From Bacillus rubiinfantis (GTDB lineage: Bacteria; Bacillota; Bacilli; Bacillales; Cytobacillaceae), in the NCBI GenBank assembly GCA_000752035.1, contig CCFE01000011.1, positions 397,099-421,098 of the forward strand: a stretch of DNA of 24,000 bases. Direction: 5' to 3'. Position numbers and translations under genes: made by a program. Shown piece after piece: positions 3,357 through 23,633 of the stretch. Position 1 is the stretch's first letter. Each line of letters opens with the position of its first letter. Under the pieces are notes generated by a model that saw only the letters and a program-made list of their open reading frames with translations, had not been told where the DNA came from and searched no databases.

Positions 3357-3457
3357 CACAAACCTCACAAAAGATTGGATAGTTCACTTATTATTTTCTC
3401 CTCTATGTGATTACATTCATGAATTTAACATATTTTACATTTTTGAGCTTAACTGCT

Positions 3458-3485
3458 TTGCAATATTCTCGCCGTCTGTTATGAT
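3458..3485 (+). promoter_or_regulatory. Candidate sigma-A promoter for the MFS gene
   Basis: TTGCAA (3458..3463), a 16-nt spacer, then TGtTATGAT (extended -10, TATGAT at 3480..3485). Identified by sequence pattern only. Confidence 0.35.
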
Positions 3486-3589
3486 AACTGACGACCGTTT
3501 GTTAAATGAATGCTCGCCGACTGGAAAATCCCTCAGGACGGTTCAGGAGGCGTAGTTGAATTTAGCTAAATCAAAAGGAGTGGTATACA

Positions 3590-9182: not shown

Positions 9183-10193
9183 TTAATAATCAAATTGACG
9201 ATAGTAACGGCGCATGTCTAAATCATGACCGGTATATTTTTCATAGTGGCGGGCCAGGCGATCAACCAACAGAGTGGAAGAAATTGTTGGTGCTAAAATC
9301 CAGCGGAATTCCTCATCGATGCCTGGTAACTCATATTCTTTCGTATCGAGGACAACGAGCTTGTCAGTATATTGACGGCAGAACTTCTCAACCCGCTCAT
9401 CCAATACACGCCGCTTGCCTTCGCCTTTTACTAAAAATACCGGAACATCTTTATCGACTAATTCTAGTGTACCATGGAAAAATTCCGAAGAAGAAACAGC
9501 TTTCGTGCGAACCCATTGCATTTCCTCTAAAATACACATGGAGAATAAGTAGACCTCGCCCCACATTTCTCCGTCGCCAACCCAGATATTATATGGCTCA
9601 TTATAATAAGCTTTAGCAATTTCATCGGCAACCGGCTCAAATTTTTCCTTGGCCTGCAGTAGATTTTCCGGCAGTTTCGCCAATTGATCAGCAAAACGCT
9701 GATATTGCGGAAAGTCACCCGCATTTTCTAATAATTTGAAAACAAGCATAAATAATTGCATATATTCAAACTCGACGCCATTTAATGCCTTATTAGGGAT
9801 GACCCAGCGGCTGGCTTTTTCCAATGGAGTTCCAGGTGTGCCAACTAATGAGCAAACGCGGATGCCTTGCTCCTGACACCACTGTGCAGCTTTAACGGTT
9901 TCTTTCGTATCACCGGACTTAGATGCCATGATCACAATGGAATCCTTTGTTAATTGTTTATGGCCCGTTAACACAATTTCACCTGCCTGCTCGGTAAAAA
10001 CAGGAATACTAGTTACTTGTTTTAACATTTCTTGAATTGGCCACATAATCGAAATAGAACCACCAACAGAGATAAAGAAGATATTTTTAAAACCCTCTGC
10101 GGAAATCTCGTTAGCAACTCTTTCAATTTCGCCACGAGTTTCATAGGTAATCCGACCATTATTCATATACACATCACTATCAAATTTCAACAT
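9183..10193 (-). CDS. SIS-domain sugar-amine phosphate deglycase/isomerase-like protein (FrlB/GfrF-like)
   Basis: 336 aa. The phosphosugar-binding SIS signature reads FFISVGGS ... IVIMASKSGDTKET. GGAGGG RBS lies 8 nt upstream. The gene follows a PTS and a paralogous SIS gene. Confidence 0.8.
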   Translation of the reverse strand: MLKFDSDVYMNNGRITYETRGEIERVANEISAEGFKNIFFISVGGSISIMWPIQEMLKQVTSIPVFTEQAGEIVLTGHKQLTKDSIVIMASKSGDTKETVKAAQWCQEQGIRVCSLVGTPGTPLEKASRWVIPNKALNGVEFEYMQLFMLVFKLLENAGDFPQYQRFADQLAKLPENLLQAKEKFEPVADEIAKAYYNEPYNIWVGDGEMWGEVYLFSMCILEEMQWVRTKAVSSSEFFHGTLELVDKDVPVFLVKGEGKRRVLDERVEKFCRQYTDKLVVLDTKEYELPGIDEEFRWILAPTISSTLLVDRLARHYEKYTGHDLDMRRYYRQFDY

Positions 10194-10275
10194 GCTGTTA
10201 TCCCTCCAAATTGCAGTCTACAAGTCAATCTGCCGAACCGTTCTGAAGCAGTACGACAGACTGCCTTTCATACTA

Positions 10276-11358
10276 TCAAACTTTGCTTTTTAACACTTTA
10301 TCGAAGTCGTCGAAGATACGGACGCTTAAATCAATTCCTCTTCCGCTGGCAATTCGGTAGGAAAGGATTTGCAGCGGAATCGCCAGCAAGAGCGGGCTCA
10401 ACCATTCATCAGCATCCACATCTAGGCTCAAGGTCTTGACATCCACAGCATCCGCACCCGTAGAAAGCGAGAAACAATGGGTTGTGTACGCTCCTAAATA
10501 GTCCTTTAACATTTCTGTGCGAATCGCCAGTGGGCTGTTTGTTTTGATAAAAATAAGTCCATAGGAACTGTTCACTTCTAAATACGGTCCATGCATAAAA
10601 GCTTCAAGTTCAAAGCCCTGTGTCGGTACCCGTACGGTTTCAGTAAATTTCGTTTCGCCCTCTTTCGCTGTCCCTACGGTCGGGCCGTAGCCAATCAGCG
10701 CAAAACGGGGAATGGTAGTTAGTTCAGCGGCATGCGCCGTATAAAAACTCTCTGTTTTTTCGATAATTGCCGGGATTTGCTCGATTAAGCGCGTCAGTTT
10801 TGCTGTTTCTGCAGCACCTGCATCAGTTGTTAATTCTCCGAGAGCGGTCCCAGCCGCGATGGCCATTAACATCGAAGTCAGCACCGTCGCGGTAAACCCT
10901 TTCGTGACAAAGCCAACTTTTTCAACACCGCAGCCGATATCGATTACTGAATCGGCATGCGCCGTAATTGGGCTGTCAAGGTTAGAAGTTAGTACAGCAG
11001 TTGCTACTTTCCCCTCAGCATGAACCTTCTTCACGGCTTCGATTGTCGAATAGCTATGGCCGCTTTGCGAAACGGCGAGAACAAAATCAATCGACGGCTT
11101 TACTTTTTCATAATGAACAAAGTTAAATGGCTCTTGAATTTCGATCGACACACCCGCCGTTTTTTCCATATAGTATTTCGCACTTAACATGGCATTAGCA
11201 CTGGACCCTGTTGCCAGTACGAGCCAATTCTTTGGCTGCTTTTCACGCATTAATTCCGTGAAAGCGGCCAGCCGATCAGCTGCCTGCGCAATGATATCAT
11301 GGCAAACCTGGGGCTCTTCATGGATATACGTCATCATTGTTTCTTGCACTCTCATCAC
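10276..11358 (-). CDS. Double-SIS-domain protein (GlmS C-terminal / AgaS / GfrE-like deglycase or ketose-aldose isomerase)
   Basis: 360 aa. Contains TYIHEEPQV, LVLATGSSANA and LAVSQSGHSYST motifs typical of SIS isomerising domains. The start is uncertain: GTG/ATG at 11358..11353 or ATGATG at 11337..11332. Confidence 0.8.
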   Translation of the reverse strand: MMRVQETMMTYIHEEPQVCHDIIAQAADRLAAFTELMREKQPKNWLVLATGSSANAMLSAKYYMEKTAGVSIEIQEPFNFVHYEKVKPSIDFVLAVSQSGHSYSTIEAVKKVHAEGKVATAVLTSNLDSPITAHADSVIDIGCGVEKVGFVTKGFTATVLTSMLMAIAAGTALGELTTDAGAAETAKLTRLIEQIPAIIEKTESFYTAHAAELTTIPRFALIGYGPTVGTAKEGETKFTETVRVPTQGFELEAFMHGPYLEVNSSYGLIFIKTNSPLAIRTEMLKDYLGAYTTHCFSLSTGADAVDVKTLSLDVDADEWLSPLLLAIPLQILSYRIASGRGIDLSVRIFDDFDKVLKSKV

Positions 11359-11411
11359 CTGTTTCTACTCTGTGATTTGCGTTTTGACTCATTTACTTGT
11401 ATGAGTAATGT

Positions 11412-11505
11412 CTGGCACTTTGTAGCTCTCTTGCCGCTAGCACTTGTAATTTTTTCCGCTTCCGCTTATAACTTTTGCCGGCAGCATTTGTAGCTCTTAC
11501 CGCTG
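11412..11505. repeat. Two copies of a roughly 24-bp direct repeat in the 150-bp intra-operon gap after EIID
   Basis: GCACTTTGTAGCTCTCTTGCCGCT (11415..11438) and GCATTTGTAGCTCTTACCGCT (11484..11504), with CCGCTTCCGCTTATAAC between them. Confidence 0.6.
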
Positions 11506-11508
11506 CCC

Positions 11509-12372
11509 TTACCCCAAAATACCAGTCCAGGCGCCTAAAATCCCGACTACGGCAATGCCAATCAAAATGGTGGTGGCCTTAAAGCCTTTGCCGAGCAGCC
11601 AATAAATGATACCGAACGCGGCTAATGGTAACAGCCCTGGCATAATCCCGTTTAGTATCTCCTGAACCTTTGTGGCGCTGTCGCCGCTGCCGATTTTTAA
11701 CGGAACACTGAGGCTGATCATCGAAGCACTCATGCCGCCGATGACCATCAAGCCGAGAATGGCGGCTCCAAGTGTTAAGCTATCCATCATGCCATTCTGT
11801 TGAATCCGTTGCAAAAAGCCGGTTCCTGCTTTAAAGCCAAGTCTTGTAAACAAGAAGCGCAGCAAAATATGTGGTACGTTAAACACGAGCAAGAATAAAA
11901 TCGGTCCGAGAATATTTCCTTGCAGCGCAAGTGAAGTACCAATCCCAGTGGCAATCAGCCGTAATGTGCCCCAATAAAACGAGTCGCCTAATCCTGCCAG
12001 CGGGCCCATTAACGAAGCTTTAACACCATTTATCGCTGATGAATCAAACTGTTTATCTTCCGCATTTTGTTTTTCCATCGCTGCCGAAATACCAAGCATA
12101 AAGGTGGCGATATGCGGTGTCGTGTTAAAAAACTCGAGATGCCGCTTGAGCGCTGCTGAAAGATCTTCTTTTTTCTTATATAATTTTTTCAATACTGGAA
12201 TCATTGCATATGTGTAGGCCATGTTCATTTGCCGCTCATAGTTCCACGAGAATTCCATCTGAAATGAGCGCCAAAAGACGCGGTTCAAATCCTTTTTGCT
12301 GATTTCAATTTCTTGACCTTGTCCCTGCTCCTGAACAGATTCTTGATTAGAAGTCTTCATCGTCGTCATCAC
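11509..12372 (-). CDS. PTS mannose/fructose/sorbose-family EIID component
   Basis: 287 aa with the typical IID N-terminus (VFWRSFQMEFSWNYERQMNMAYTYAM) and C-terminal TM segments. It overlaps the EIIC 3' end by 14-26 nt depending on the start chosen. Confidence 0.9.
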   Translation of the reverse strand: MMTTMKTSNQESVQEQGQGQEIEISKKDLNRVFWRSFQMEFSWNYERQMNMAYTYAMIPVLKKLYKKKEDLSAALKRHLEFFNTTPHIATFMLGISAAMEKQNAEDKQFDSSAINGVKASLMGPLAGLGDSFYWGTLRLIATGIGTSLALQGNILGPILFLLVFNVPHILLRFLFTRLGFKAGTGFLQRIQQNGMMDSLTLGAAILGLMVIGGMSASMISLSVPLKIGSGDSATKVQEILNGIMPGLLPLAAFGIIYWLLGKGFKATTILIGIAVVGILGAWTGILG

Positions 12373-13135
12373 TCACCACTCCTCCTTGATTAGCACCTGC
12401 TAGGCTGACTTTCTGATTATGCATGATATTCACCATAATAACTGCGACAATTGCACCAAGAAGGGCAATGCCTGTTACCGGAACCTTTAGATAAGCAACG
12501 ATTAGAAAACCTAAGAAGAAATATGGAACCACTTTTTTATTAATTAACAAGCGTGCTAACATTGCAAAACCTAGTGCTGGCAGGATGCCCGTGGCAATTT
12601 GCAAGCCGGTTTGTATAAAGTCTGGAATGGCATTAAGAACATGTTTAATCGCATCGCTGCCGACATAGAAGGAAACCGTCACAATGATCGCGAGCATGAG
12701 TGACAGACCGAAGCCGCCGATTAAGTGCATCGCCTCAATTCCCCTCGTGTTGCCATCCTCGGCATATTTATCGGCTTTATGGGCTAGCACCGGTAAGAAC
12801 AGACCTAAGTAAATATTTTTCAAAACAAGCGTGAACGTTGCAATCGGCAACCCAAGTAACAGGGCTGTTTCTGTTCCTGCCCCAGACGAGATGGCAAAGG
12901 CCGTTCCGAGCACACCACCAGTGACAACATCAGGCGGAATCGCCGCGCCGACTGAGAATGAGCCGATGAAGGCTAACTCTAATGTTGCCCCCATAATGAC
13001 ACCTGTTTTAATATCGCCCATTACCAGACCTACGAAAAATCCGGTCACAAGCGGGCGTGAAAGTAAGCTTGTTCCCAACGCATATTCACTTTGCGCAACA
13101 AAGGCAACCAAACCTAAAAGTAATGCAGTCAACAT
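12347..13135 (-). CDS. PTS mannose-family EIIC component
   Basis: 262-aa polytopic membrane protein adjacent to IIB and IID. Ends in the acidic tail VVSDDDDEDF. Confidence 0.9.
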   Translation of the reverse strand: MLTALLLGLVAFVAQSEYALGTSLLSRPLVTGFFVGLVMGDIKTGVIMGATLELAFIGSFSVGAAIPPDVVTGGVLGTAFAISSGAGTETALLLGLPIATFTLVLKNIYLGLFLPVLAHKADKYAEDGNTRGIEAMHLIGGFGLSLMLAIIVTVSFYVGSDAIKHVLNAIPDFIQTGLQIATGILPALGFAMLARLLINKKVVPYFFLGFLIVAYLKVPVTGIALLGAIVAVIMVNIMHNQKVSLAGANQGGVVSDDDDEDF

Positions 13136-13163
13136 GAGTATCCCTCCCTAACCAAAAGTGCGT

Positions 13164-13634
13164 TTACAGCACATTTTGGGCTAATATTTTTTTATCGCTG
13201 GGCACTTGGCGAATCTCCACCTCAACACCCTGAGCCATCATTTTTTTCACTAATTCTTCCTCATCCGGCAAAAGATTAACGGCTTTCGAAATATTTCGGG
13301 CCCCTTCCTTCGCCTTGATGCCGCCTAAATTCACCTGCTTAATCTCTGGGTAAGCACTGACAAGTTTTTCCGCATCAGCGACTGATTCCACGACAATGAA
13401 CAACTTGTATTTATCGGTTACGCCGCTTTTTAACGCTTCAATGGAGTCTGCGATATTCTTAATGACCAGGCGAACTCCCTGTGGCTTGGCCAGTTTGATG
13501 GTTGTTTTCCGCAGCTCATTTACGGGAACATCATCATTGGCAATTAAGATGCAATCAGCTCCTAAATTGTTCGTCCATGAAAAAGCCACTTGGCCATGCA
13601 ATAAACGGTGATCAACACGTAAAAGTTTAATCAT
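13164..13634 (-). CDS. PTS mannose/sorbose-family EIIB component
   Basis: N-terminus MIKLLRVDHRLLHGQV contains the conserved phospho-histidine motif (DxRLxHGQV). Confidence 0.9.
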   Translation of the reverse strand: MIKLLRVDHRLLHGQVAFSWTNNLGADCILIANDDVPVNELRKTTIKLAKPQGVRLVIKNIADSIEALKSGVTDKYKLFIVVESVADAEKLVSAYPEIKQVNLGGIKAKEGARNISKAVNLLPDEEELVKKMMAQGVEVEIRQVPSDKKILAQNVL

Positions 13635-13651
13635 TTCACTCCATCCTTTCG

Positions 13652-14071
13652 TTAAAAATCCTCATCCTCACTATCCCCAGCCAATTCTGGATTGCAATAC
13701 TTAATCGATGACTTTGAGTTCTTAAGGGCCTTCTCGATTAATTCTGCAGTAGCGATTGCGCTATTTTTTAAAGTGACCAGTTCAATCACTAACGGCAAAT
13801 TCATCCCGGCAATGAGATGAATTCGTTTATCTCCGAGTCGATTCATAAACTCATTGTTGACACTGCCGCCAAAGATATCGCTTACAATAATGAGTTCATC
13901 AGTTTCTGCTAATTTGTCACAGACATCATTTATCTGCAATTGGAGGTCGACCTCTTCCTCAACATAGGCAGACAAGGTCCAAATATCCTTTTGCGCACCG
14001 GTAATCATTTCGACGGAATGGAGCATCCCCTCAGCAAGCCTGCCGTGAGAAGCCAATAATATATATCGCAC
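13652..14071 (-). CDS. PTS mannose-family EIIA component
   Basis: (V)RYILLASHGRLAEG matches the EIIA-Man N-terminal His loop. GTG start with GGAGGTG 7 nt upstream. Ends in GDSEDEDF. Confidence 0.9.
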   Translation of the reverse strand: MRYILLASHGRLAEGMLHSVEMITGAQKDIWTLSAYVEEEVDLQLQINDVCDKLAETDELIIVSDIFGGSVNNEFMNRLGDKRIHLIAGMNLPLVIELVTLKNSAIATAELIEKALKNSKSSIKYCNPELAGDSEDEDF

Positions 14072-14129
14072 GTTCGCACACCTCCTTTTTTAAAAAATGT
14101 TTTATAATTTTTCACTCTACCCTTATTAA

Positions 14130-14145
14130 TGCAAAAAGCGTGCCA
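14130..14145 (-). promoter_or_regulatory. Sigma-54 (-24/-12) promoter of the PTS operon
   Basis: Minus strand reads TGGCAC-GCTTT-TTGCA, an exact match to TGGCAC-N5-TTGCA. It lies about 60 nt upstream of the EIIA start and directly downstream of a gene for a sigma-54 activator. Confidence 0.85.
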
Positions 14146-14161
14146 ACTTAGTGGCACGCCG
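14133..14161 (-). terminator. Terminator hairpin of the regulator gene, overlapping the sigma-54 promoter
   Basis: Minus strand reads GCGTGCCA-CTAAGT-TGGCACGC-TTTTT, starting 11 nt after the TAG stop. The 3' arm is the -24 box, and the T run forms the promoter spacer plus the first bases of the -12 box. Confidence 0.6.
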
Positions 14162-14171
14162 CTTATTTTTT

Positions 14172-16958
14172 CTAAAAATCTTCGTCATCGCTTGCTACAG
14201 CAGCTAAGTAATCGTAAATATAGCCGATTTCTGCTGTATTGATTTTGACATTATAAATTGATTCTATGACACTAAAAGCCTCTTGGATGTATTTAATCAT
14301 CTCTTTTTGACACTGTTCGAAATTTTCAAGATGTTCATACGTATCAATCGGCGCCTGACGGATTAATCGCTCCACCAAACAGCTGACATGGACATAAAGG
14401 GCAACTTTTTTATCATTAGGCAGCCGTTGGTTTAGTCGAATTTCTAAACGATGGATAAACTCTTCCGCCTGGGAAAGAATTTTTTCCGAATCCAGTATCG
14501 TCAATGATTCAATCACTCGCTGCAGGGAAAAATTCCGAAGCAAATTATCATTAATTTCTTTATATCGTGCTTCCTCCATGATTGACAGAAAGATTTTCCG
14601 CATCGTCGCTTCGCCCTGACCTGAGATAATATCCTCCAGTGATAGATACGGTACATCGGCAATTCCCGGATTGGCTGTGCCCACAATTGCAAGAACGTCA
14701 TGCAGTTGAAAAATCGCCTCCGAGGACCCAAGTTCTTTTAAGCGCTCAAAATCATACGCCTGAACTTGGAGCGCTAAATCCGCTGGCATGCTTGCCTCCA
14801 GCAATTTTTGAATTTGCAAGGCCGTTCCCATGCCTGTTAGACAGGTGGTAATAATCACTTTTTCCTTCGCTTTTTCTGGGTAAATAATATTATATTCGGT
14901 TTGGTTGGCTTGGCGTAATTTTTCCAGCATCTCTTCTAAAAATAAATCCTGCTCCAGCATGCTGCCGAGGAATAACGCCATTTGTGTCGATACATTATTA
15001 ATGATCGCGACCGGTCCATTGAGCTGCTGTTTAAATTGGGCATGAATATCTTTTAAAGAGCCCATATCGACTAAGAGGATGAGCCCCTTCGAGATGTCGT
15101 GATGTTCAATATAATGGTAGACCTTCGCCGCTATTTCCTCTACAGAAATGTCTAGCGGCATATCAAAAGCCTCAAATACATTTTTCTTCAAGAGCCGATT
15201 AGCGACATTGGCAATACTGCTGGCGGTTGCATAGCCATGCGCGAGAATAATTGCCTTCACTTGTTGGTTGCTTCGTTCAATCGCGACACTCCGCAAATAA
15301 AGGCTGAGAAAGATTTCATCCATTTGTTCCAGTTTCACTTCTAATCTACTTTCTAACAGATGGACAAAATGGTTCGCCAGCTGCTGCTCGAGCTTATATG
15401 ATTCTTCAATATAGTTTGCCAGTTGTTCAATCATGCTCTCCTGTCTTTCATGCCAGCGCAAATCGGCATTGCCTTTGTAATAGAGGAAATGGGCAATGGC
15501 GTAAATACTATTGCCATTAAATTGAACGTGATAATTTGTCTCTAAAAATTGGATAATTTCTTGGACACTTATCGTCGTGAGTTCGAGCCAAACGCCGGCA
15601 TCCTCCTTTGACCCGGTAAAGATAAGCTGATCAAACAGCAGCTGAATACCTTGAAAAACTTTTTGCTCAAAGACAGCTGCCGTTAGTTTTTTTGCCTGGT
15701 GTTCTTCATATAACAGCAACAATTGTGCAAAACTTTTCTTAATCAATTGTACCTGCGAGAGGTTTGTCTCGGTTAATTGCTCCAGGGCAGCATCAGGGGC
15801 AATTACAATATCATGGTTCTGTTTTACTTTATAGTCGGTTTTGCGCAGTGTTTCTTCCAAAATTCGATCTGGAAGATGGTGTAACGTAATCCGCACCTCT
15901 TCTGCTTCGCGATTTTTCGCAAATGATGAACCGGCAATATATTGAATAGTGTTTTTCAAGTCACCCATATTTCCGGGATAATGATAGCTTGTTAACGCCT
16001 CGAGAATTCGGCGGGTCAGCTGAAGCGGTTTGCCCAATTTTTGTGCTTCCTGTAATAAAAACATGTAAACAAATTGGCGCTTCTCCTTTTCACCGCGCTC
16101 ATCCAAGCTCGGAATAGTGACGCGGATCGGAATCCGTCGCAGGAAGGTCGGTAAAAAGTTAGCGGCCAAATCCTCCGTTGTCGCAAAAATCAGACGGACG
16201 TTTGCGTGATGGTTGCCTTCACTTTCCCCCATGCGGCGGTACACGCCTTGGTCGAGAAATGTGAATAGTTTCTCCTGCCCCTCCGCATTCAGGCGATGGA
16301 CTTCATCTAAAAATAAAATTCCGCCATCCGCCGCGGCCAGCAAGCCATCCTTTGTTTTCTCCGCACCTGTAAACGCACCTTTGACATAACCAAATAGATT
16401 GCTTGACATCAGCTCCGGATTGTTGGCATATTGCGCACAGTTGAAGCTGATAAACGGGGCATTTTGGTCGATGATTCCCTTTTCAACACTGTAGCGATGG
16501 ATGAGGCCGGCGGTAAAGCTCTTGCCAACACCTGTCGGGCCGACGAGAATCAGCGGCAGGCCGGTTCCTGGATAATAGATAGACGTTTTAATTTGCTCAA
16601 TCGCCTTTTTCAGACTGCCATCAGCACCAATTAAACGAGAAAAAATATCATGCTCCTCTTCCCGCGGCTCCGGCTGTTGCGCCTGCAACTCTTGAAAACT
16701 TTGAAAAATATGAGTAGACAGCAGCGGGAAAAATTTCTGTTCAAAGGTCGAGCGGCTCAAAAAATAGACCGGCCGCGTGTTAATTTTTATCACTCTACCC
16801 TCTTCCACCAGCTGGTTAAGATAGTGACTTACCGTGTTGCGTTTGACAACAAAGCACGCAGACATGGAGCTTGCCGTCAGCTTTTCAGAAGGATTGTCCC
16901 AATCAAAGCTTGTCGTTTCTTGTTCTAAAAATGCCAGTAATCTTTCTTTCAGGCTCAT
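14172..16958 (-). CDS. LevR/ManR-type sigma-54-dependent transcriptional activator (HTH, AAA+ domain, then PRD / EIIA-like / EIIB-like / PRD)
   Basis: 928 aa. Walker A is GPTGVGKS, with the sigma-54 contact motif GAFTGA and GGILFLDEVHRL. The long C-terminal PRD/PTS-regulation region is typical of LevR. GGGGGTG RBS. Ends in ASDDEDF. Confidence 0.9.
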   Translation of the reverse strand: MSLKERLLAFLEQETTSFDWDNPSEKLTASSMSACFVVKRNTVSHYLNQLVEEGRVIKINTRPVYFLSRSTFEQKFFPLLSTHIFQSFQELQAQQPEPREEEHDIFSRLIGADGSLKKAIEQIKTSIYYPGTGLPLILVGPTGVGKSFTAGLIHRYSVEKGIIDQNAPFISFNCAQYANNPELMSSNLFGYVKGAFTGAEKTKDGLLAAADGGILFLDEVHRLNAEGQEKLFTFLDQGVYRRMGESEGNHHANVRLIFATTEDLAANFLPTFLRRIPIRVTIPSLDERGEKEKRQFVYMFLLQEAQKLGKPLQLTRRILEALTSYHYPGNMGDLKNTIQYIAGSSFAKNREAEEVRITLHHLPDRILEETLRKTDYKVKQNHDIVIAPDAALEQLTETNLSQVQLIKKSFAQLLLLYEEHQAKKLTAAVFEQKVFQGIQLLFDQLIFTGSKEDAGVWLELTTISVQEIIQFLETNYHVQFNGNSIYAIAHFLYYKGNADLRWHERQESMIEQLANYIEESYKLEQQLANHFVHLLESRLEVKLEQMDEIFLSLYLRSVAIERSNQQVKAIILAHGYATASSIANVANRLLKKNVFEAFDMPLDISVEEIAAKVYHYIEHHDISKGLILLVDMGSLKDIHAQFKQQLNGPVAIINNVSTQMALFLGSMLEQDLFLEEMLEKLRQANQTEYNIIYPEKAKEKVIITTCLTGMGTALQIQKLLEASMPADLALQVQAYDFERLKELGSSEAIFQLHDVLAIVGTANPGIADVPYLSLEDIISGQGEATMRKIFLSIMEEARYKEINDNLLRNFSLQRVIESLTILDSEKILSQAEEFIHRLEIRLNQRLPNDKKVALYVHVSCLVERLIRQAPIDTYEHLENFEQCQKEMIKYIQEAFSVIESIYNVKINTAEIGYIYDYLAAVASDDEDF

Positions 16959-18564: not shown

Positions 18565-18954
18565 ATGAAAAATCTTATAATAAGCCTAATTTTATTGATA
18601 TTTATTTTCAGTTTGACAGGATGTGCAGATGTTGGCACTAAAACCTCGATGTCAAAACATCCAGATGCTGAAGAGATATTGGGTCTTGATGAAAATGCAG
18701 ATATTTTTCAATGGGATGGATTAATTTACGAAACAAATATAGATTGGGTAAATGAGTTAAAACTCACAAAAAACGAACAGTTGGGTGAGATAACAGAATC
18801 ATTTTCAAACAGTGATGCTAAGAATTTTAAAAATGGTATGGCCAACAAATTACCTGTGGGCACAAAAATATATTCCGCTAAAGAAAGTGAAGGCATTTTA
18901 ATCGTAGAACATAATAATGAAGAAAAATATTATTTAGCATTAGTAGAAGGGTAG
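18565..18954 (+). CDS. Small lipoprotein of unknown function
   Basis: Signal peptide with lipobox LTGC (MKNLIISLILLIFIFSLTGCADV). GGGGGTG RBS 6 nt upstream. Confidence 0.7.
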   Translation: MKNLIISLILLIFIFSLTGCADVGTKTSMSKHPDAEEILGLDENADIFQWDGLIYETNIDWVNELKLTKNEQLGEITESFSNSDAKNFKNGMANKLPVGTKIYSAKESEGILIVEHNNEEKYYLALVEG

Positions 18955-18956
18955 CT

Positions 18957-19140
18957 AGTGATGATATAGGGTTCATGAGAACTAACCAGGGGATCGACTT
19001 CCTGATTCTGTCCTCATAAAGGGTTCATGAGAACTGTTTGGCGATCGCTCGATGGTGTTTTGTTCTCATAAAAGGTTTATGAGAACTATACTAGCCACGA
19101 CGAGTGGATATAGTTCTCATAGATAGTTTATGATGTAACT
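18957..19140. repeat. Roughly 52-bp tandem unit x3.5, built around a palindrome GTTCTCATAAA-N3-TTTATGAGAAC
   Basis: The right arms TT(C/T)ATGAGAAC start at 18972, 19024 and 19076, with a degenerate copy at 19127. The perfect 11-bp-arm palindrome is at 19062..19086. The array fills the whole gap between convergent stop codons (18954 and 19157). Confidence 0.75.
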
Positions 19141-19156: not shown

Positions 19157-19987
19157 TCAAAACGGATTATAAAACCGACTTCCATCATAAAAGGTGACCC
19201 CTAGCGAAATCACTAGCAGCAGCACGAAAACAACCAGCGCCACGATGTCCACTTTTTGAAAGGGGCGGGCGCGGTACCAGGTGCGTTTCTTGTTTTTGCC
19301 GAAGCCGCGCAGCTCCATGGCGTTGCTGATGATTTCTATTTTATCAAGGCTTGAGAGAATCAACGGCACGATAATCGATGCAGCATTCTTGATTCGCTTC
19401 CACAGTTTTTCCTTCCGAGACATATCAATACCGCGGGCTTGCTGCGACAGGGCAATCGTGTGAAAATCGCGCTGCACATCGGGAATGTAGCGGAGCGCGA
19501 GCGCAACCGCATAGGCAATTCGATAGCTGACACCGATCTTGTTCAATGAAGCCGCAAACTCACTAGGGTTGGTCGTGACAATAAACAATAGCGCCGCGGG
19601 AATCACGGTAAAATACTTCAATGTGACATTCATTTGATAGAATAATTGCTCGAGCGTCAAAGAATAGCGCCCACCGCCAAGACCCGCGAGCACATGACTA
19701 GTCCCGTAAATCTTTACCCCTTCTTGCGGTGAAAAAGCATAGATAGCGAGATTATTAATCAATAGAAAGATTAGAATAAAATAGACGACAAAGGCGACTT
19801 CGGAGAACTTCACCTTAGAAATACGAAAAACAACGATGCTGAGTACAAACAAGAACAAGAGCACGCGCGTATCATAGGTCAACATTGCAATCGATGACCA
19901 AATCAAAAAACAAATCAGCTTGGTGACCCCGGTGAGCCGATGGACTGGTGACTGCCGTTCAATATAGGAAAGCATTTCTACTGCCAT
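19157..19987 (-). CDS. ecfT: ECF transporter transmembrane (T) component
   Basis: 276 aa. Has the typical EcfT/CbiQ layout and the conserved coupling-helix Ala-Arg-Gly motif (ALSQQARGID). Its start overlaps the stop of the upstream ATPase gene. Confidence 0.85.
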   Translation of the reverse strand: MAVEMLSYIERQSPVHRLTGVTKLICFLIWSSIAMLTYDTRVLLFLFVLSIVVFRISKVKFSEVAFVVYFILIFLLINNLAIYAFSPQEGVKIYGTSHVLAGLGGGRYSLTLEQLFYQMNVTLKYFTVIPAALLFIVTTNPSEFAASLNKIGVSYRIAYAVALALRYIPDVQRDFHTIALSQQARGIDMSRKEKLWKRIKNAASIIVPLILSSLDKIEIISNAMELRGFGKNKKRTWYRARPFQKVDIVALVVFVLLLVISLGVTFYDGSRFYNPF

Positions 19988-21684
19988 TGCTGCCGCACCT
20001 CCCGATCATAGACAATAAAGCGATCGACAAACTGCTTCGGCTCCTTGATGCCGACCTTTATCGCCAAATCATACAGTGACGTTTCCTTTAAATTGGCCTC
20101 CGCAATAATCGCCGGATTAGCCAGCACGTTGACCGCGGTATCATCGGCTATTTTTCGCCCGCCGGCAATAACAATCGCCCTTGGTGTATATTCCAGCATC
20201 AGATGCATATCATGGGTAATCATCACAATCGTAACACCGCGGCGGTTTAATTCCACTAAAAACTCCATGATATCGGTATAATGGCGGAAATCCTGACCGG
20301 CAGTCGGTTCGTCAAGAATAATTACCTCCGGCTGCAACACCAAAATCGAGGCGATGGTGACCCGCTTTTTCTGGCCAAAGCTTAACGCCGAAATTGGCCA
20401 GTTGCGATACGGGTACAACCCGCAGATTTTCAAGGTTTCGAGCACCCGCTCTTTCATTTCCGCTTCCGGCACACCGCGAATCACGAGCCCAAGGGCGACT
20501 TCATCAAAAATCATCCCCTTGGAAATCATATGATTTGGGTTCTGCATCACCATGCCAATCCGCTCCGCCCGTTCCTTAATCGTATCATCGGAAATTTCCT
20601 TACCACGATAATAAATCGTTCCCGCGCTCGGTTTTTCAAAGCCGCAGATTAGCTTAGACAGCGTTGATTTTCCCGCACCATTTTTGCCGACGATGCTGAC
20701 CATTTCGCCTTTTCCAATCGAAAAAGAGACATCGTGAATCGTTTGCTGACCTGGTTTATAGCCAAAATTGATGCCCCTTAGCTCCAAAATCGGCTCGTTT
20801 TTTTCTCTCCCCGTTGGGATGCTAACGCCCGAAAACCAGTTATGTAATTGCTCCCGACAGCTAGTAATCTCGAATGTATCAAGATGAGCTGGCTGCATCT
20901 CCTCGGTAATTTCACAGCCGGCATATTTGGCGGCCTTAACGTACAGCGGTTCACGAAGTGCGCATTTTTCCAAAACAGTTGAAGCTAATAATTCATCCGG
21001 TGTCGTGTCGCTGATAATCCTGCCATCATCGATGACAATCACGCGATCAACCGGGCAATGGAGCACATCCTCCAAACGATGCTCGATAATGACAATCGTT
21101 TTGTTCGTGTCTTGGTGAATGCGGTCGATCAGTTCAATTGCATATTTCCCCGTAGCCGGGTCGAGATTGGCGAGCGGCTCATCAAATAGGAGAATCTCAA
21201 CATCGTCAACCATAACACCTGCTAACGAAACCCGCTGTTTTTGCCCCCCTGAAAGCTGATGGAGAGAAGCGTCCAAGTGTGTCTCAATTTCAACTAGTTT
21301 GGCAACATCGGCAACTCTGGCAACCATCTCATCCTTTGGGGTGCAGTCATTCTCGAGCGCAAACGCGATGTCCTCGGCAACAGTGAGACCGATAAATTGC
21401 CCATCCGGGTCCTGCAGTACGGTGCCGACCTTTTTCGATAAGGAAAAAATATCCTTTGGCACCTCGCCACTGATTTTGACACTGCCGCTGACTTTTCCTT
21501 TATATGAAAAGGGAACAAGGCCATTGAGACAATGGCCAAGTGTACTTTTTCCTGAACCTGAAGGGCCGATAATAAGAACCTTTTCCCCTTCATAGATGGT
21601 AAGATTAATATTTTGTAAAGTTGGGGCTGTCTGGCTGTGATATTGAAAGCTATAATTTTCAAATTGAATTACCGGTTTTTTCAT
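19978..21684 (-). CDS. Fused (duplicated) ECF/ABC ATPase, A-A' components
   Basis: 568 aa with two complete ABC cassettes. Walker A motifs are GPSGSGKST and GKNGAGKST; signature motifs are LSGGQKQR and LSFGQKKR; Walker B motifs are LLFDEP and IILDEP. Confidence 0.9.
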   Translation of the reverse strand: MKKPVIQFENYSFQYHSQTAPTLQNINLTIYEGEKVLIIGPSGSGKSTLGHCLNGLVPFSYKGKVSGSVKISGEVPKDIFSLSKKVGTVLQDPDGQFIGLTVAEDIAFALENDCTPKDEMVARVADVAKLVEIETHLDASLHQLSGGQKQRVSLAGVMVDDVEILLFDEPLANLDPATGKYAIELIDRIHQDTNKTIVIIEHRLEDVLHCPVDRVIVIDDGRIISDTTPDELLASTVLEKCALREPLYVKAAKYAGCEITEEMQPAHLDTFEITSCREQLHNWFSGVSIPTGREKNEPILELRGINFGYKPGQQTIHDVSFSIGKGEMVSIVGKNGAGKSTLSKLICGFEKPSAGTIYYRGKEISDDTIKERAERIGMVMQNPNHMISKGMIFDEVALGLVIRGVPEAEMKERVLETLKICGLYPYRNWPISALSFGQKKRVTIASILVLQPEVIILDEPTAGQDFRHYTDIMEFLVELNRRGVTIVMITHDMHLMLEYTPRAIVIAGGRKIADDTAVNVLANPAIIAEANLKETSLYDLAIKVGIKEPKQFVDRFIVYDREVRQQWQ

Positions 21685-21735
21685 GATTCTATCTCCTAGT
21701 CAAACGTTCAGTTAATTTCACGGCTCCCGATCCTC

Positions 21736-22293
21736 TTACAGATCTTTTGTCAGGCTGCCGCTCTGACTGCGGCTTTTTGCATACAAGGACAGCAGCAATG
21801 TTCCGAGCACGGCCACAGTTACCATGTTCAACCCGCCAGCAACAGCCCCTTGCAAATACACTTTATTCGCCGGCTCGGCATAAATCAGAATATCCAATGA
21901 CGGTGCCACCAGCAGCCAGCCGATTGCTTGCACCACAATTTGCACAAGATTAAAGAGGATAATTTTTTTTGTTGTAAAAACCCCGGATTCGATATTGATT
22001 TTTTTCGCTGCTAGGCCAATTAAGAAGCCTACCAATCCAGAAACCACAACCCAGCTCCACCATGGTGTTCCATAAAAGATGAAGTCTTTTAATGCATGGC
22101 CAATCAGTCCGATCAGACCGCCAGCAACTGGTCCAAAAATCACAGCCATCAATGCCAAAAATCCATACGACGTATCAAAATTTGTATTCGGTACTCCTGT
22201 AGGGATGACGGCAAAGCGACCTAAAATGACGAAGACAGCAGCGCCAATTCCGATTGCGACGATTGTTTTAATAGATAATTGATTTCCTTTCAT
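21736..22293 (-). CDS. ECF transporter substrate-specific (S) component, substrate unknown
   Basis: About 185 aa with 5-6 hydrophobic helices, directly upstream of the dedicated A-A' and T genes. I prefer ATG 22293..22291 ([17 protein letters not shown] 8 nt upstream) over the track start. Confidence 0.8.
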
Positions 22294-22323
22294 TCTTAAA
22301 ACCCCCAATTTATTTTTTTACTT

Positions 22324-23175
22324 CTAAGCAAGCTTCGGTAATTTCCGAATTGAGATTTTCCACGATGCGCCTGTTTCAATATGATAGGCATTGGCAAACG
22401 AGCCTTGGTTAATCGCGACGCCAATTTTGTCAAGTGAGTTGATGAACAGCAGCGGTTCGCCTAAATGAATGTCGGCAAATGTCCGGCCGTAGGTCATGAT
22501 GTTTTTGTACACTTGGCGGGTCTCATTCTCGATGGTAACCTCGAAGGAATCACCATGCTCGGCCCCTAAATCCTTGAACAGCGTGCGGTCGATATTTGTC
22601 CACAGATTGCCGAAACGGACATCGAGGATATCGATATTCCCAGTCAGCACTTCATTCGTAATGCTTGGCTCCGGCTTTGGCAGTTCAATTATCGAGTCGA
22701 TAGGTGCCTCAGGACCAACTTGCTCAAAGGTAATTAAGTTAGATGCGAGCCGCGCCCCCGTATAGGCATAGACATCGCGGCCATGGAAGGTGTACGATTC
22801 CCCCGAATTCGGCAGGCGATTGACTGTTTCATCAATGATTCTCACTTCCTTAATGCCAATCGCACTTTTTATATGAGTGAGCGTACCGTTATCAGGGGTG
22901 ACAATGTATTGATTCAACGCCGTTTTCACGACAACACTGCGCCGCTCCGAACCGACTCCGGGATCGACTACCGAAACAAACACCGTTCCCTCCGGCCAAT
23001 AGGCAACCGTCTGGTAGAGTCGGTATGATCCTTCCCAGATATTGTATTGCGGAATATCATGGGTCAAATCGAAAATCCGAATCGCTGGGTTCACAGAAAT
23101 CGCCACGCCGTACATCGCACTGACGGCACCGTCACTTAAACCGAAATCAGTTTGCAGCACAAGATTGTGATTCAT
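22324..23175 (-). CDS. DUF62-family S-adenosyl-L-methionine hydrolase (adenosine-forming; SAM hydroxide adenosyltransferase / halogenase family)
   Basis: Family signatures are LQTDFGLSDGAVSAMYGV, GTVFVSVVDPGVGSERR and IVTPDNGTLT. GGAGG RBS. Confidence 0.85.
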   Translation of the reverse strand: MNHNLVLQTDFGLSDGAVSAMYGVAISVNPAIRIFDLTHDIPQYNIWEGSYRLYQTVAYWPEGTVFVSVVDPGVGSERRSVVVKTALNQYIVTPDNGTLTHIKSAIGIKEVRIIDETVNRLPNSGESYTFHGRDVYAYTGARLASNLITFEQVGPEAPIDSIIELPKPEPSITNEVLTGNIDILDVRFGNLWTNIDRTLFKDLGAEHGDSFEVTIENETRQVYKNIMTYGRTFADIHLGEPLLFINSLDKIGVAINQGSFANAYHIETGASWKISIRKLPKLA

Positions 23176-23246
23176 TGTAAATTCCTCCTTTTTTTCTTTT
23201 GAAAAAGTTTATTAACATTAATTAGAAAATTTGCATCTAGAAAAAT

Positions 23247-23567
23247 AAAAAACCACGCCCCTATCAATTTTTAGAATCGATAAGGACGTGGTTGGAATCA
23301 CGTGGTACCACCTTAATTTACTGACTGCTCACGCAAATCAGCCTCTGCAAGTACGGAGCTCTCATTAGTTATGGCTCTTTATACTGTGGTATGGATAACG
23401 AGTACCAAATCTCGACGGAACCTACTTCAATCAGTAAATCGGGATATCTCCCTAGATTGTTTCAGCACGCAGCTCCGAGGCCATTGTTCGGATTGATATT
23501 TTTGCTTCTTTTCAGCTACCGAAGCTCTCTGTGAAAAAATAACACAATCGTACTTTCCCTCTTCAAC
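23247..23567 (-). promoter_or_regulatory. T-box leader (tRNA-sensing riboswitch) with terminator; probable Met (AUG) specifier
   Basis: Read on the minus strand. Stem I carries an AGTA box, the AGAGAG bulge and a distal loop GGTAGCTGAAAA. The specifier loop is CGAACA-ATG-G (ATG = complement 23482..23484), closed by CCTC pairing with GAGG. The T-box sequence AATTAAGGTGGTACCACG is at 23318..23301. The terminator AACCACGTCCTTATC ... GATAGGGGCGTGGTT plus T6 is at 23295..23247. Confidence 0.85.
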
Positions 23568-23604
23568 GCTTTATAACTTTTTATTGAGTTTGAAAATTTA
23601 CTCA

Positions 23605-23633
23605 ATTATAAGCCCAGTTTTCGGAATAGTCAA
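23605..23633 (-). promoter_or_regulatory. Sigma-A promoter of the T-box operon
   Basis: Minus strand has TTGACT (23633..23628), a 17-nt spacer, then TATAAT (23610..23605), about 35 nt upstream of the T-box Stem I. Confidence 0.7.

What the first reader, a model, noticed from the sequence alone, without database searches (positions are those of the whole stretch)
19157..23633. Met-type T-box controlling a SAM hydrolase (DUF62) plus a dedicated ECF transporter: a possible SAM-scavenging route to methionine
One transcription unit runs: sigma-A promoter, T-box leader, DUF62, ECF S component, fused A-A' ATPase, T component.

The specifier loop reads CGAACA-AUG-G immediately before the closing CCUC helix. 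By the usual rule (codon, then a purine, then the helix) the specifier is AUG, meaning induction by uncharged tRNA-Met. A less likely reading is CAA (Gln) directly after GAA.

DUF62 enzymes hydrolyse S-adenosyl-L-methionine to adenosine plus L-methionine. Placing that enzyme and a substrate-unknown ECF importer under methionine-starvation control suggests a module that imports SAM, or a related adenosyl-sulfonium or methionine precursor, and releases methionine from it.

Comparative-genomics work has predicted methionine-precursor ECF systems. I am not aware of the DUF62 coupling having been tested experimentally.
Basis: partly seen in the sequence, partly recalled or inferred. Interest (0 to 1): 0.62.

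Follow-up and report, generated by a model that had tools for sequence, protein, structure and literature searches.

The report
Methionine-switched SAM hydrolase plus ECF importer
An RNA switch that senses uncharged methionine tRNA turns on four genes: an enzyme that splits S-adenosylmethionine (SAM) into methionine and adenosine, and a vitamin-type importer of unknown cargo. The cassette is widespread in Gram-positive bacteria and is a good but untested candidate for SAM scavenging.

Summary
On the minus strand lie a near-consensus promoter, a T-box leader (Rfam 111.5 bits, cut-off 93), a DUF62 SAM-hydrolase gene, a UPF0397-type ECF S component, a fused A-A' ATPase and a T component.

The specifier is AUG (Met).
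- AUG followed by G is invariant in 39 non-redundant orthologous leaders, while the bases before it vary. This rules out CAA (Gln).
- The UGGU bulge fits A73 of tRNA-Met, not G73 of tRNA-Gln.
- The same codon rule reads the cognate codon in at least 11 other T-boxes of this genome (18 with readings by eye).

In 401 Bacilli genomes, DUF62 and the S ortholog are adjacent in 35 of the 35 genomes that hold both. The pairing changed at least 5 times on the S tree. The cassette also sits between IS1216 copies on an Enterococcus faecium plasmid.

The database name "riboflavin transporter" is not supported. The genome's true RibU is a different gene, behind an FMN riboswitch.

SAM import followed by hydrolysis is the best reading, at about 0.5, and is unproven. 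Some lineages keep T-box-DUF62 without the importer, and others keep the importer without DUF62.

This scan had already found the same cassette in several other genomes. I found no experimental test in the papers I could search. Verdict: a new member of a known, computationally predicted kind, with moderate interest.

The parts
23605..23633 (-). Sigma-A-type promoter: TTGACT, 17 nt, TATAAT
   Evidence: 11 of 12 matches, the best site in the region; sequence.
23279..23575 (-). T-box leader (Stem I with specifier loop, Stem II/III region, antiterminator)
   Evidence: RF00230 at 111.5 bits against a gathering score of 93, E = 3e-24, model positions 1-219; 21 of 34 predicted pairs show compensatory changes across 39 orthologous leaders.
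23482..23484 (-). Specifier codon AUG (Met), followed by purine G at 23481 and the closing helix CCUC at 23480-23477
   Evidence: The covariance-model alignment puts AUG in the codon slot. ATGG is invariant in 39 non-redundant leaders and in 50 in total, while the flanking bases vary. The codon rule is validated on other T-boxes of this genome.
23307..23310 (-). UGGU of the T-box antiterminator bulge, which pairs with the ACCA-3' end of the tRNA
   Evidence: Sequence. Elongator tRNA-Met of this genome has discriminator A73, whereas tRNA-Gln has G73. The bulge is UGGU in 46 of 50 orthologous leaders.
23241..23293 (-). Intrinsic terminator of the leader. Its 5' arm (CCACGUCCUUAUC) is also the 3' strand of the antiterminator, so the two structures exclude each other.
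   Evidence: 19 pairs, 7 G-C, T-run; for the overlap with the T-box 3' end.
22324..23175 (-). DUF62 / SAM hydroxide adenosyltransferase (SAM hydrolase) family protein, 283 aa, with no signal peptide
   Evidence: PF01887 175 bits, PF20257 80 bits. (E = 4.5e-39 to 2zbu and 4e-37 to PH0463 2wr8). D71, R78 and H131 align with the D68-R75-H127 triad of PH0463. Single copy in the genome.
21736..22293 (-). ECF S component of the UPF0397 / PF07155-core family, 185 aa from the ATG at 22293 (the longest ORF starts at TTG 22308)
   Evidence: PF07155 176 bits. (NF010182 258.6 bits). (AlphaFold model pLDDT 90; S-component fold, TM 0.57-0.68 to FolT, RibU, PanT and BioY alike). (no sequence-level relative among solved structures).
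19978..21684 (-). Fused ECF A-A' ATPase, 568 aa, with two Walker A motifs
   Evidence: TIGR04520 414 bits against 315; TIGR04521 364 bits against 330. (two ABC_tran domains plus DUF3744). (motifs).
19157..19987 (-). ECF T component, 276 aa. Its start overlaps the ATPase stop by 10 nt.
   Evidence: PF02361 104 bits. (Ala-Arg-Gly at residues 184-186, ELRGF further on, overlapping junction).

Best explanation
This is a methionine-starvation unit.

Shown or near-shown:
- Transcription from the promoter stops at the leader terminator unless uncharged tRNA-Met binds the leader.
- The tRNA anticodon CAU pairs with the specifier AUG. Its ACCA end pairs with UGGU in the bulge.
- That binding stabilises the antiterminator and lets RNA polymerase read into four co-transcribed genes.

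Inferred:
- The dedicated ECF importer (UPF0397-type S component, fused A-A' ATPase, T component) takes up S-adenosylmethionine, or a very close adenosyl-sulfonium compound, from outside the cell.
- The cytoplasmic DUF62 enzyme hydrolyses it at C5' to L-methionine plus adenosine, which relieves the shortage.
- DUF62 can also act on the cell's own SAM, including the inactive (R)-epimer. This would explain why some lineages keep T-box-DUF62 without the importer.

In this genome the operon is the only one of 22 T-boxes that reads AUG. Methionine synthesis, metNPQ-type uptake and metK all sit behind SAM riboswitches. The cassette therefore answers to tRNA-Met charging rather than to the SAM level.
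For: Regulation:
- the T-box, the promoter, and the mutually exclusive terminator and antiterminator.
- AUG-G is invariant in 50 leaders (39 non-redundant).
- tRNA-Met has A73 and tRNA-Gln has G73.
- the codon rule recovers cognate codons for tyrS, trpS, valS, leuS, ileS, glyS, cysE, alaS, proBA and others. Ours is the only AUG T-box.

Enzyme: searches show both DUF62 domains and the triad. SAM to adenosine plus Met is the known chemistry of the family (PMC12120602; 10.1101/2025.08.29.672840).

Coupling:
- in 401 Bacilli genomes, 35 of the 35 genomes holding both genes have DUF62 directly upstream of S on the same strand.
- 46 of 80 named loci have the same arrangement.
- on the S tree the linkage changed 11 times, with at least 5 changes forced by well-supported branches. 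The pairing was therefore made or kept repeatedly.
- some streptococci keep only the DUF62-S pair.
- the whole cassette lies between IS1216 copies on a conjugative E. faecium plasmid.

Met/SAM regulon link of the wider S family: SAM riboswitches precede the 30-37% identical paralogue and three clostridial orthologues.

Not riboflavin.

S-box regulon of this genome.
Against: - No transport or enzyme assay exists for any member in the papers I could search.
- Five sampled genomes have T-box(Met)-DUF62 but no UPF0397 S component at E <= 1e-10. Their DUF62 proteins nest inside the ECF-linked clade. The enzyme is therefore useful under Met starvation without this importer.
- Fourteen sampled genomes and 34 of 80 named loci have the importer without DUF62.
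- Characterised DUF62 enzymes prefer (R,S)-SAM, and their physiological role is disputed (PMC12120602). From my memory they are also slow.
- ECF systems usually carry nanomolar micronutrients, not bulk amino-acid sources.
- This protein scores far below the cut-offs of the two '(R)-SAM hydrolase' equivalog models, so its substrate preference is unknown.
Confidence: 0.5

Rival explanations
1. The genes are co-regulated but do not act in sequence. The ECF system imports a different methionine-related compound, such as methionine itself, methionine sulfoxide, S-methylmethionine, methylthioadenosine or homocysteine. DUF62 independently releases methionine from the cell's own SAM pool when tRNA-Met is uncharged.
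For: - T-box(Met)-DUF62 exists without any UPF0397 S component in five sampled genomes. Those enzymes nest within the ECF-linked clade.
- S-A-A'-T exists without DUF62 in Paenibacillaceae, Brevibacillus, Clostridia and others.
- From my memory, the ECF family was named only a 'methionine precursor' transporter by comparative genomics (Rodionov et al. 2009; not held in the library).
Against: - Adjacency is 35 of 35 and the gene order is fixed wherever both genes occur.
- DUF62-S pairs occur without a dedicated ATPase module.
- The cassette moves as one unit on a plasmid.
- The linkage was re-formed or retained across at least 5 well-supported changes.
- Mere co-regulation seldom gives such a strict order. 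This genome already has an S-box-controlled MetN-type methionine importer.
Confidence: 0.27
2. This is a cofactor import system with a clean-up enzyme. The ECF system imports environmental SAM as a vitamin-like cofactor, which spares methionine. Aged SAM is partly racemised at sulfur. DUF62 hydrolyses only the inactive (R,S)-epimer that comes in with it, preventing inhibition and recovering methionine and adenosine.
For: - Every DUF62 enzyme tested for stereoselectivity so far prefers (R,S)-SAM (10.1101/2025.08.29.672840; PMC12120602).
- This reading explains why the importer alone is viable in many lineages, and why some orthologues and the paralogue sit behind SAM riboswitches.
- ECF systems are typically cofactor importers.
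Against: - A Met T-box senses translation demand, not cofactor demand.
- DUF62 comes first in the operon and keeps T-box control even without the importer.
- The stereoselectivity of this clade is untested, and it falls below the equivalog cut-offs.
Confidence: 0.2
3. The S component is a riboflavin transporter, as NCBIfam and Pfam name it, and its position next to DUF62 is incidental.
For:: NF010182 'ECF-type riboflavin transporter substrate-binding protein' scores 258.6 bits against a cut-off of 99; the Pfam name of PF07155. Public annotations repeat the name.
Against: - The genome's FMN riboswitch lies directly before a different gene (C21:41433-41563). That gene matches solved S. aureus RibU at E = 1.3e-43.
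- Our protein matches RibU only at E = 0.44, and shares 28% identity over 96 aa with the genome's own RibU.
- A family profile finds no solved structure at E <= 1.
- The fold model is no closer to RibU than to FolT, PanT or BioY.
- None of the 69 S-ortholog loci scanned with Rfam has an FMN element upstream of the S gene. In the rest, checked only with T-box and S-box profiles, the leaders found were T-box(Met) or SAM riboswitches.
Confidence: 0.02

Closest known systems
Methionine-specific T-box leaders (Rfam RF00230; Met T-box regulons described for Firmicutes, PMC3766115)
   Same: A full T-box with an AUG specifier, a purine after the codon, a UGGU bulge and a competing terminator. It controls a methionine-supply operon.
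   Different: In this Bacillaceae genome the rest of methionine metabolism is under SAM riboswitches. This is the only Met T-box of 22, and it controls neither a synthetase nor a biosynthetic gene.
DUF62 SAM hydrolases / SAM hydroxide adenosyltransferases (P. horikoshii PH0463; Salinispora tropica StDUF62; archaeal (R)-SAM hydrolases)
   Same: The same two domains and the same Asp-Arg-His triad. About 35-40% similar to solved members (E = 1e-37 to 1e-39).
   Different: It scores below the cut-offs of both '(R)-SAM hydrolase' equivalog models. It belongs to a Firmicute clade that is encoded next to an ECF importer and under Met control. Its activity and stereoselectivity are untested.
Predicted 'methionine precursor' ECF family (MtsTUV, TCDB 3.A.1.29; Rodionov et al. 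2009). Cited from my memory; the paper is not held and could not be checked.
   Same: A dedicated S plus A-A' plus T module under Met T-box or S-box control, with the substrate unassigned.
   Different: I could not test sequence membership because no TCDB sequences are available here. The strict pairing with DUF62 points to SAM itself rather than a generic 'precursor'.
Known SAM transporters (Rickettsia and Chlamydia EamA-type carriers, PMC3104491; yeast Sam3)
   Same: If the inference holds, the function is the same: uptake of intact SAM.
   Different: The protein family (ECF/ABC) and energy coupling are unrelated. The organism is free-living and has metK. The bacterial SAM carriers known so far are described as confined to obligate parasites (PMC12676344).
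RibU, the ECF riboflavin S component (PDB 3p5n, 5kbw)
   Same: The six-helix S-component fold, and a shared Pfam family by name.
   Different: No significant sequence similarity. The regulator differs (T-box Met rather than an FMN riboswitch). The genome has its own true RibU elsewhere.

Membership tests
T-box leader (RF00230), Met class | Covariance-model score above Rfam's gathering score over the full model | tested here: met
   111.5 bits against 93, model positions 1-219, E = 3e-24.
T-box leader (RF00230), Met class | Specifier loop with a codon followed by a purine next to the closing helix, the codon being AUG | tested here: met
   AUG-G is invariant in 39 non-redundant leaders and in 50 in total. 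The closing helix covaries: GAGG/CCUC, GAGA/UCUC, AGGA/UCCU. The rule is validated on other T-boxes of this genome.
T-box leader (RF00230), Met class | UGGN in the antiterminator bulge that matches the discriminator base of the cognate tRNA | tested here: met
   UGGU at 23310-23307. tRNA-Met has A73 and tRNA-Gln has G73. The glyS and thrS T-boxes of this genome carry UGGA, as expected for U73.
T-box leader (RF00230), Met class | Mutually exclusive antiterminator and intrinsic terminator | tested here: met
   The terminator at 23293-23241 shares CCACGUCCUUAUC with the antiterminator 3' strand.
T-box leader (RF00230), Met class | Read-through that depends on uncharged tRNA-Met | not testable with these tools
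   This needs in vitro antitermination or reporter assays.
DUF62 / SAM hydroxide adenosyltransferase (PF01887 + PF20257) | Both domains above the Pfam cut-offs | tested here: met
   175.1 bits against 26.3, and 79.9 bits against 25.5.
DUF62 / SAM hydroxide adenosyltransferase (PF01887 + PF20257) | Conserved Asp-Arg-His triad (D68, R75, H127 of PH0463; the identity of the triad is from my memory of the PH0463 work) | tested here: met
   D71 (VVDPGVG), R78 (SERR) and H131 (FHGRD) align with the PH0463 residues.
DUF62 / SAM hydroxide adenosyltransferase (PF01887 + PF20257) | Hydrolysis of SAM to adenosine plus L-methionine | not testable with these tools
   An enzyme assay is needed.
(R)-S-adenosyl-L-methionine hydrolase equivalogs (NF058624, NF053629) | Score above the curated equivalog cut-off | tested here: not met
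   138.9 bits against 350, and 127.7 bits against 470. It is a relative, not an equivalog.
ECF transporter with a dedicated module (group I type) | S component with the six-helix S-component fold | tested here: met
   (pLDDT 90.3, pTM 0.85). (top 24 PDB matches are all ECF S components, TM 0.54-0.68).
ECF transporter with a dedicated module (group I type) | ECF-type A and A' ATPase domains | tested here: met
   (TIGR04520 414 bits against 315; TIGR04521 364 bits against 330). Two Walker A motifs.
ECF transporter with a dedicated module (group I type) | T component (CbiQ/EcfT family) with an Ala-Arg-Gly coupling motif, encoded next to S and A | tested here: met
   (PF02361 104 bits). ARG at residues 184-186 and ELRGF downstream. 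The genes are contiguous.
RibU-type riboflavin S component | FMN riboswitch control or riboflavin-gene context | tested here: not met
   The leader is a Met T-box. The genome's FMN riboswitches lie elsewhere, one of them before the true RibU. None of the 69 S-ortholog loci scanned with Rfam has an FMN element upstream of the S gene.
RibU-type riboflavin S component | Sequence similarity to experimentally characterised RibU | tested here: not met
   E = 0.44 to 3p5n. The family profile finds nothing in the PDB at E <= 1. It shares 28% identity over 96 aa with the genome's own RibU. It does pass NF010182 (258.6 bits against 99), but that model's name is not backed by these tests.
MtsTUV / TCDB 3.A.1.29 'methionine precursor' ECF family | Dedicated ECF module under methionine-regulon control (T-box Met or S-box) | tested here: met
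MtsTUV / TCDB 3.A.1.29 'methionine precursor' ECF family | Sequence membership with the TCDB or published reference proteins | not testable with these tools
   No TCDB sequences are at hand, and Rodionov 2009 is not held. The family name is from my memory.

The most novel reading that the evidence does not exclude
The UPF0397-type ECF system is the first SAM importer of free-living bacteria. DUF62 is its partner enzyme: it turns imported SAM, or at least the inactive (R)-epimer that accumulates in aged environmental SAM, into methionine and adenosine. This would give the long-puzzling DUF62 family a physiological role and add SAM to the list of ECF 'vitamins'.
Probability: 0.45. Interest if true: 0.75.

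Novelty: new member of a known kind. Interest (0 to 1): 0.5.

Why it matters
Three open points meet in one small, portable operon.
- The physiological role of DUF62 SAM hydrolases. A 2025 paper states it may still be unknown (PMC12120602).
- The substrate of a large ECF S-component family that databases label 'riboflavin', apparently wrongly.
- Whether free-living bacteria can take up SAM at all. A 2025 paper says uptake is known essentially only in obligate parasites (PMC12676344).

The Met T-box states the physiological purpose outright: methionine for translation. The question can therefore be settled with ordinary growth, uptake and enzyme assays. If SAM uptake is confirmed, it would also bear on the entry of SAM-analogue drugs into Gram-positive bacteria. 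The locus itself is an ordinary member of a cassette that this scan had already met in several other genomes.

Tried and rejected
1. CAA (Gln) specifier: rejected. The bases between GAA and AUG vary (CA, AA, C, AG, GG, AU) while AUG-G never does. tRNA-Gln has G73, but the bulge is UGGU.

2. Riboflavin transporter reading: rejected.

3. Looking for genomes that lack metK but carry the importer, which would have pointed to SAM uptake: uninformative. metK is present in 399 of 401 genomes, and the two without it are incomplete.

5. Primary literature:
- Rodionov 2009 and 2004, Vitreschak 2008, Kornfuehrer 2020 and Eustaquio 2008 are not held.
- Searches for MtsT, COG1912, UPF0397, and SAM uptake combined with ECF found no paper on this cassette.
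- The two proteome or transcriptome mentions of DUF62 say nothing about function.

6. Unconstrained consensus folding of the leaders does not reproduce the canonical T-box architecture as a whole. I use only its covariation counts and the invariant ATGG, and rely on the Rfam model for the structure.

7. CodY-box-like or MET-box-like motifs in leaders that lack a T-box: seen by eye only, not tested, and not used as evidence.

8. An EamA-family transporter at window 1375-2289 belongs to the family of the rickettsial SAM carrier. It lies 17 kb away in unrelated context, so I draw no link.

Full report
**1. What is there**

The Rfam scan of the whole window finds one family, a T-box leader on the minus strand at 23575-23279. 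It scores 111.5 bits against a gathering score of 93, at E = 3e-24, over all 219 model positions.

- A TTGACT-17-TATAAT promoter lies upstream at 23633-23605. It is the best promoter-like site in the region.
- The leader ends in a 19-pair hairpin with a T-run at 23293-23241.
- The hairpin's 5' arm is also the 3' strand of the antiterminator. The two structures therefore exclude each other.

Four minus-strand genes follow.

| Gene | Window coordinates | Evidence |
|---|---|---|
| DUF62 / SAM hydroxide adenosyltransferase | 22324-23175 | PF01887 175 bits, PF20257 80 bits |
| ECF S component | 21736-22293 | PF07155 176 bits; NF010182 258.6 bits |
| Fused A-A' ATPase | 19978-21684 | TIGR04520 414 bits against a cut-off of 315 |
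| T component | 19157-19987 | PF02361 104 bits |

The junctions fit one transcript:
- a 30-nt gap with a GGGGG ribosome-binding site;
- a 51-nt gap with AGGAG;
- a 10-nt overlap between the ATPase and T genes.

**2. The specifier**

The covariance model aligns AUG (23484-23482) to the codon slot. A purine G and the closing helix CCUC follow it. Four independent checks agree.

- *Orthologous leaders.* I collected leaders from 55 loci of a 401-genome sample of the class and from 80 named loci. All 50 T-box leaders found, 39 of them non-redundant, carry AUG-G in the same column. The bases between GAA and AUG vary (CA, AA, C, AG, GG, AU). The closing helix covaries: GAGG/CCUC, GAGA/UCUC, AGGA/UCCU. 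CAA is present in only a subset, so the Gln reading is rejected.
- *The tRNA end.* The antiterminator bulge reads UGGU. In this genome elongator tRNA-Met has discriminator A73 and tRNA-Gln has G73.
- *A control in the same genome.* The same rule applied to the genome's other T-boxes returns the cognate codon.
  - Found by the pattern: tyrS UAC, trpS and trpE UGG, valS GUC, leuS CUC, ileS AUC, glyS GGC, cysE UGC, alaS GCU, proB CCU and brnQ AUC.
  - Read by eye from the printed sequence: proS and proC CCU, pheS UUC, thrS ACC, argS CGC, serS UCC and ilvB CUC.
  - The gene names are my reading of the N-terminal sequences printed, not family scans.
- *Uniqueness.* Ours is the only AUG T-box of the 22 found in the genome.

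**3. The proteins**

*DUF62.* The protein matches solved family members at E = 4.5e-39 (2zbu) and 4e-37 (PH0463).
- D71, R78 and H131 align with the D68-R75-H127 triad of PH0463. The identity of that triad is from my memory of the PH0463 work.
- It has no signal peptide and is single-copy in the genome.
- It scores far below the cut-offs of NCBI's two '(R)-SAM hydrolase' equivalog models. It is a family member, but not an equivalog of the characterised enzymes.

*S component.* An AlphaFold model built on a 13-sequence alignment is confident (pLDDT 90.3).
- Its best PDB matches are all ECF S components: FolT, RibU, PanT, BioY and ThiT, at TM 0.54-0.68 and 14-21% identity. RibU is not preferred over the others.
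- At the sequence level it has no relative among solved structures. The single sequence gives E = 0.44 to RibU 3p5n. The family profile finds nothing at E <= 1.

**4. The 'riboflavin' name fails**

NCBIfam and Pfam call this family an ECF riboflavin S component, and public records repeat the name.

- This genome has an FMN riboswitch at C21:41433-41563, directly upstream of a different 192-aa S component.
- That other protein matches S. aureus RibU at E = 1.3e-43.
- It shares only 28% identity over 96 residues with our protein.
- It scores 27.7 bits on PF07155, barely above the cut-off. Ours scores 176 bits.
- None of the 69 S-ortholog loci scanned with Rfam has an FMN element upstream of the S gene. 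The remaining named loci were checked only with T-box and S-box profiles.

**5. How general is the pairing**

In an even sample of 401 genomes of the class:
- S orthologues (at least 48% identity) occur in 49 genomes and DUF62 in 45;
- 35 genomes hold both, and in all 35 the DUF62 gene lies directly upstream of S on the same strand;
- 14 genomes have the S orthologue without DUF62 (Paenibacillaceae, Brevibacillus, two streptococci);
- 10 genomes have DUF62 without S.

Among the 80 best named loci from one genome per species, 46 show DUF62-S-A-A'-T. The closest relative is Neobacillus bataviensis at 92% identity. Others include Bacillus altitudinis, Cytobacillus, Exiguobacterium, Carnobacterium, Enterococcus and Clostridium.

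Trees address the fact that relatives are not independent.
- On a maximum-likelihood tree of 126 S proteins, the state 'DUF62 adjacent' changes 11 times. Branches with at least 95% support force at least 5 of those changes. Shuffled labels average 40.5 changes. One adjacent locus, L053, was scored as non-adjacent because its genes overlap.
- Some streptococci keep only the DUF62-S pair and must use the shared ECF module.
- The four-gene cassette lies between two IS1216 copies on a conjugative E. faecium plasmid.

All of this marks DUF62 plus S as one functional unit.

**6. Regulation across the family**

- Of the 46 DUF62-linked named loci, 36 have the Met T-box.
- The Exiguobacterium leaders fall below Rfam's gathering score but are clear by a profile built from the others, and they also read AUG.
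- A 30-37% identical paralogue with its own A-A'-T sits behind a SAM riboswitch in three sampled genomes. Three clostridial orthologues do the same.
- Both branches of the PF07155 core family share the invariant residues H66, D70, W78, W81, D134, E140, K144 and Q148. This hints at a related ligand.
- Enterococcus, Streptococcus, a 2.6-2.8 Mb genus that I take to be Staphylococcus, Paenibacillaceae and most Clostridia have no known RNA leader here.

**7. Two complications**

- *DUF62 without the importer.* Five sampled genomes carry T-box(Met)-DUF62 as a single gene, with no UPF0397 S component anywhere at E <= 1e-10. In a DUF62 tree these proteins nest inside the ECF-linked clade. One sits within a starred set of 27 ECF-linked rows. 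Another group is sister to the ECF-linked Chungangia protein at 99% support. The enzyme is therefore kept under methionine-starvation control without the importer.
- *The importer without DUF62* is common (section 5).

A strict obligatory two-step pathway is thus too simple. The enzyme must be able to use the cell's own SAM, and the imported compound must be useful without hydrolysis. SAM itself satisfies both conditions. So does the reading that the two parts are merely co-regulated.

**8. Context in this genome**

The genome is 4.31 Mb with 40% G+C.

SAM riboswitches precede five units:
- a methionine-biosynthesis PLP enzyme (NF006095, 694 bits against 585);
- homoserine dehydrogenase;
- an O-acetylhomoserine sulfhydrylase-family gene;
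- a MetN-like ABC ATPase;
- metK.

The organism therefore makes and imports methionine under SAM control. The DUF62-ECF operon alone listens to tRNA-Met charging.

The neighbouring genes in the window are unrelated: a glyoxalase, a sigma-54/PTS sugar operon, an amidase, and MFS and EamA transporters.

**9. Mechanism and odds**

Regulation by uncharged tRNA-Met is as good as shown by sequence; I put it at about 0.95. For function, my odds are as follows.

| Reading | Odds |
|---|---|
| SAM (or a close adenosyl-sulfonium) is imported, then hydrolysed to Met plus adenosine | about 0.5 |
| The two parts are co-regulated but not sequential | about 0.27 |
| Riboflavin transport | about 0.02 |

- *Against bulk scavenging.* ECF systems are micronutrient importers. 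Characterised DUF62 enzymes are (R)-selective, and from my memory slow (10.1101/2025.08.29.672840; PMC12120602).
- *For SAM.* The only known chemistry of the family is attack at C5' of an adenosyl-sulfonium. Adjacency is strict. The whole family sits under Met or SAM regulators.

**10. What is known**

- I found no paper in the searchable library that links an ECF transporter to SAM or to DUF62.
- A 2025 paper questions the physiological role of DUF62 (PMC12120602).
- Another 2025 paper states that bacterial SAM uptake is known essentially only in obligate parasites (PMC12676344).
- From my memory, comparative genomics (Rodionov et al. 2009; TCDB 3.A.1.29) predicted a 'methionine precursor' ECF family (MtsTUV) under Met T-box or S-box control. 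That paper is not held, so I could not check it or test sequence membership.
- This scan had already reported the same cassette in several other genomes. I re-tested its main claims independently here.

**Verdict**

This is a real, correctly read locus and an ordinary new member of a widespread, computationally predicted cassette. It carries an attractive functional hypothesis that remains untested.

Noticed in passing
window 18958-19133: There are four copies of a ~25-nt palindrome (GTYCTCATAA-NNNN-TTYATGAGAAC) at 52-nt spacing, in the gap between the convergent ends of the T-component gene and the ORF at 18565-18954. About nine copies at up to 5 mismatches are scattered over six contigs of the genome. 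It looks like a small dispersed REP-like hairpin element. No canonical terminator follows the operon, so these hairpins may end the transcript.
   Followed up: partly
L081 (G011:C5:325784-332733), oriented coordinates 1288-2328 and 2649-3746: Two tandem DUF62 genes are present. The first starts with a lipoprotein-type signal (MKQHRRLTLLLTIVLALSFTLFGC...) and the second with a hydrophobic signal-like segment. They appear to be exported SAM-hydrolase-family proteins in a Bacilli genome that lacks the UPF0397 importer.
   Followed up: no
L088 (G400:C33:100470-107416): A monocistronic T-box(Met)-DUF62 is followed at once by a SAM riboswitch (2482-2583) and sulfate-assimilation genes (cysH-, sat- and cysC-like ORFs). 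Two different methionine-related sensors stand back to back.
   Followed up: partly
L076, L077, L079 (sampled genomes G037, G256, G034): A 30-37% identical paralogue of the S component, with its own fused ATPase and T component, sits directly behind a SAM riboswitch. It has no DUF62. It shares the invariant residues H66, D70, W78, W81, D134, E140, K144 and Q148 with the T-box-linked family.
   Followed up: partly
L062-L073 (Paenibacillaceae and Brevibacillus S-A-A'-T loci), about 60-100 nt upstream of the S gene: A conserved motif, (A)CTATAGTA(A/T)T(T/C)CC...(T)TGTATAAT, overlaps the -35 region of the promoter. No riboswitch is present. It may be the operator of an unknown regulator.
   Followed up: no
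L057, L060, L061 (2-Mb genomes, probably Streptococcus), about 90 nt upstream of DUF62: The sequence CTATAAGGTAAAACTATA resembles the MET-box palindrome of streptococcal MtaR/MetR regulons (from my memory). If real, it is a third kind of methionine control for the same cassette.
   Followed up: no
L171 (E. faecium plasmid NZ_CP064407.1, 77911-88444): The DUF62-S-A-A'-T cassette lies between two IS1216 transposase genes on a conjugative plasmid, which looks like a composite transposon. Lactobacillus amylolyticus plasmids carry S-A-A'-T without DUF62 (L172).
   Followed up: partly
window 9183-16958: A LevR-type sigma-54 activator (PRD and EIIA-Man domains), a mannose-family PTS IID component and two SIS-domain proteins lie together. 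This is probably an amino-sugar or fructosamine utilisation operon, unrelated to the finding.
   Followed up: no
genome G000, contig C21:41433-42298: The genome's true RibU, behind an FMN riboswitch, scores only 27.7 bits on PF07155. The Pfam and NCBIfam 'riboflavin' name of that family is therefore carried mostly by UPF0397 proteins that are probably not riboflavin transporters. This is a likely systematic misannotation in public records.
   Followed up: yes
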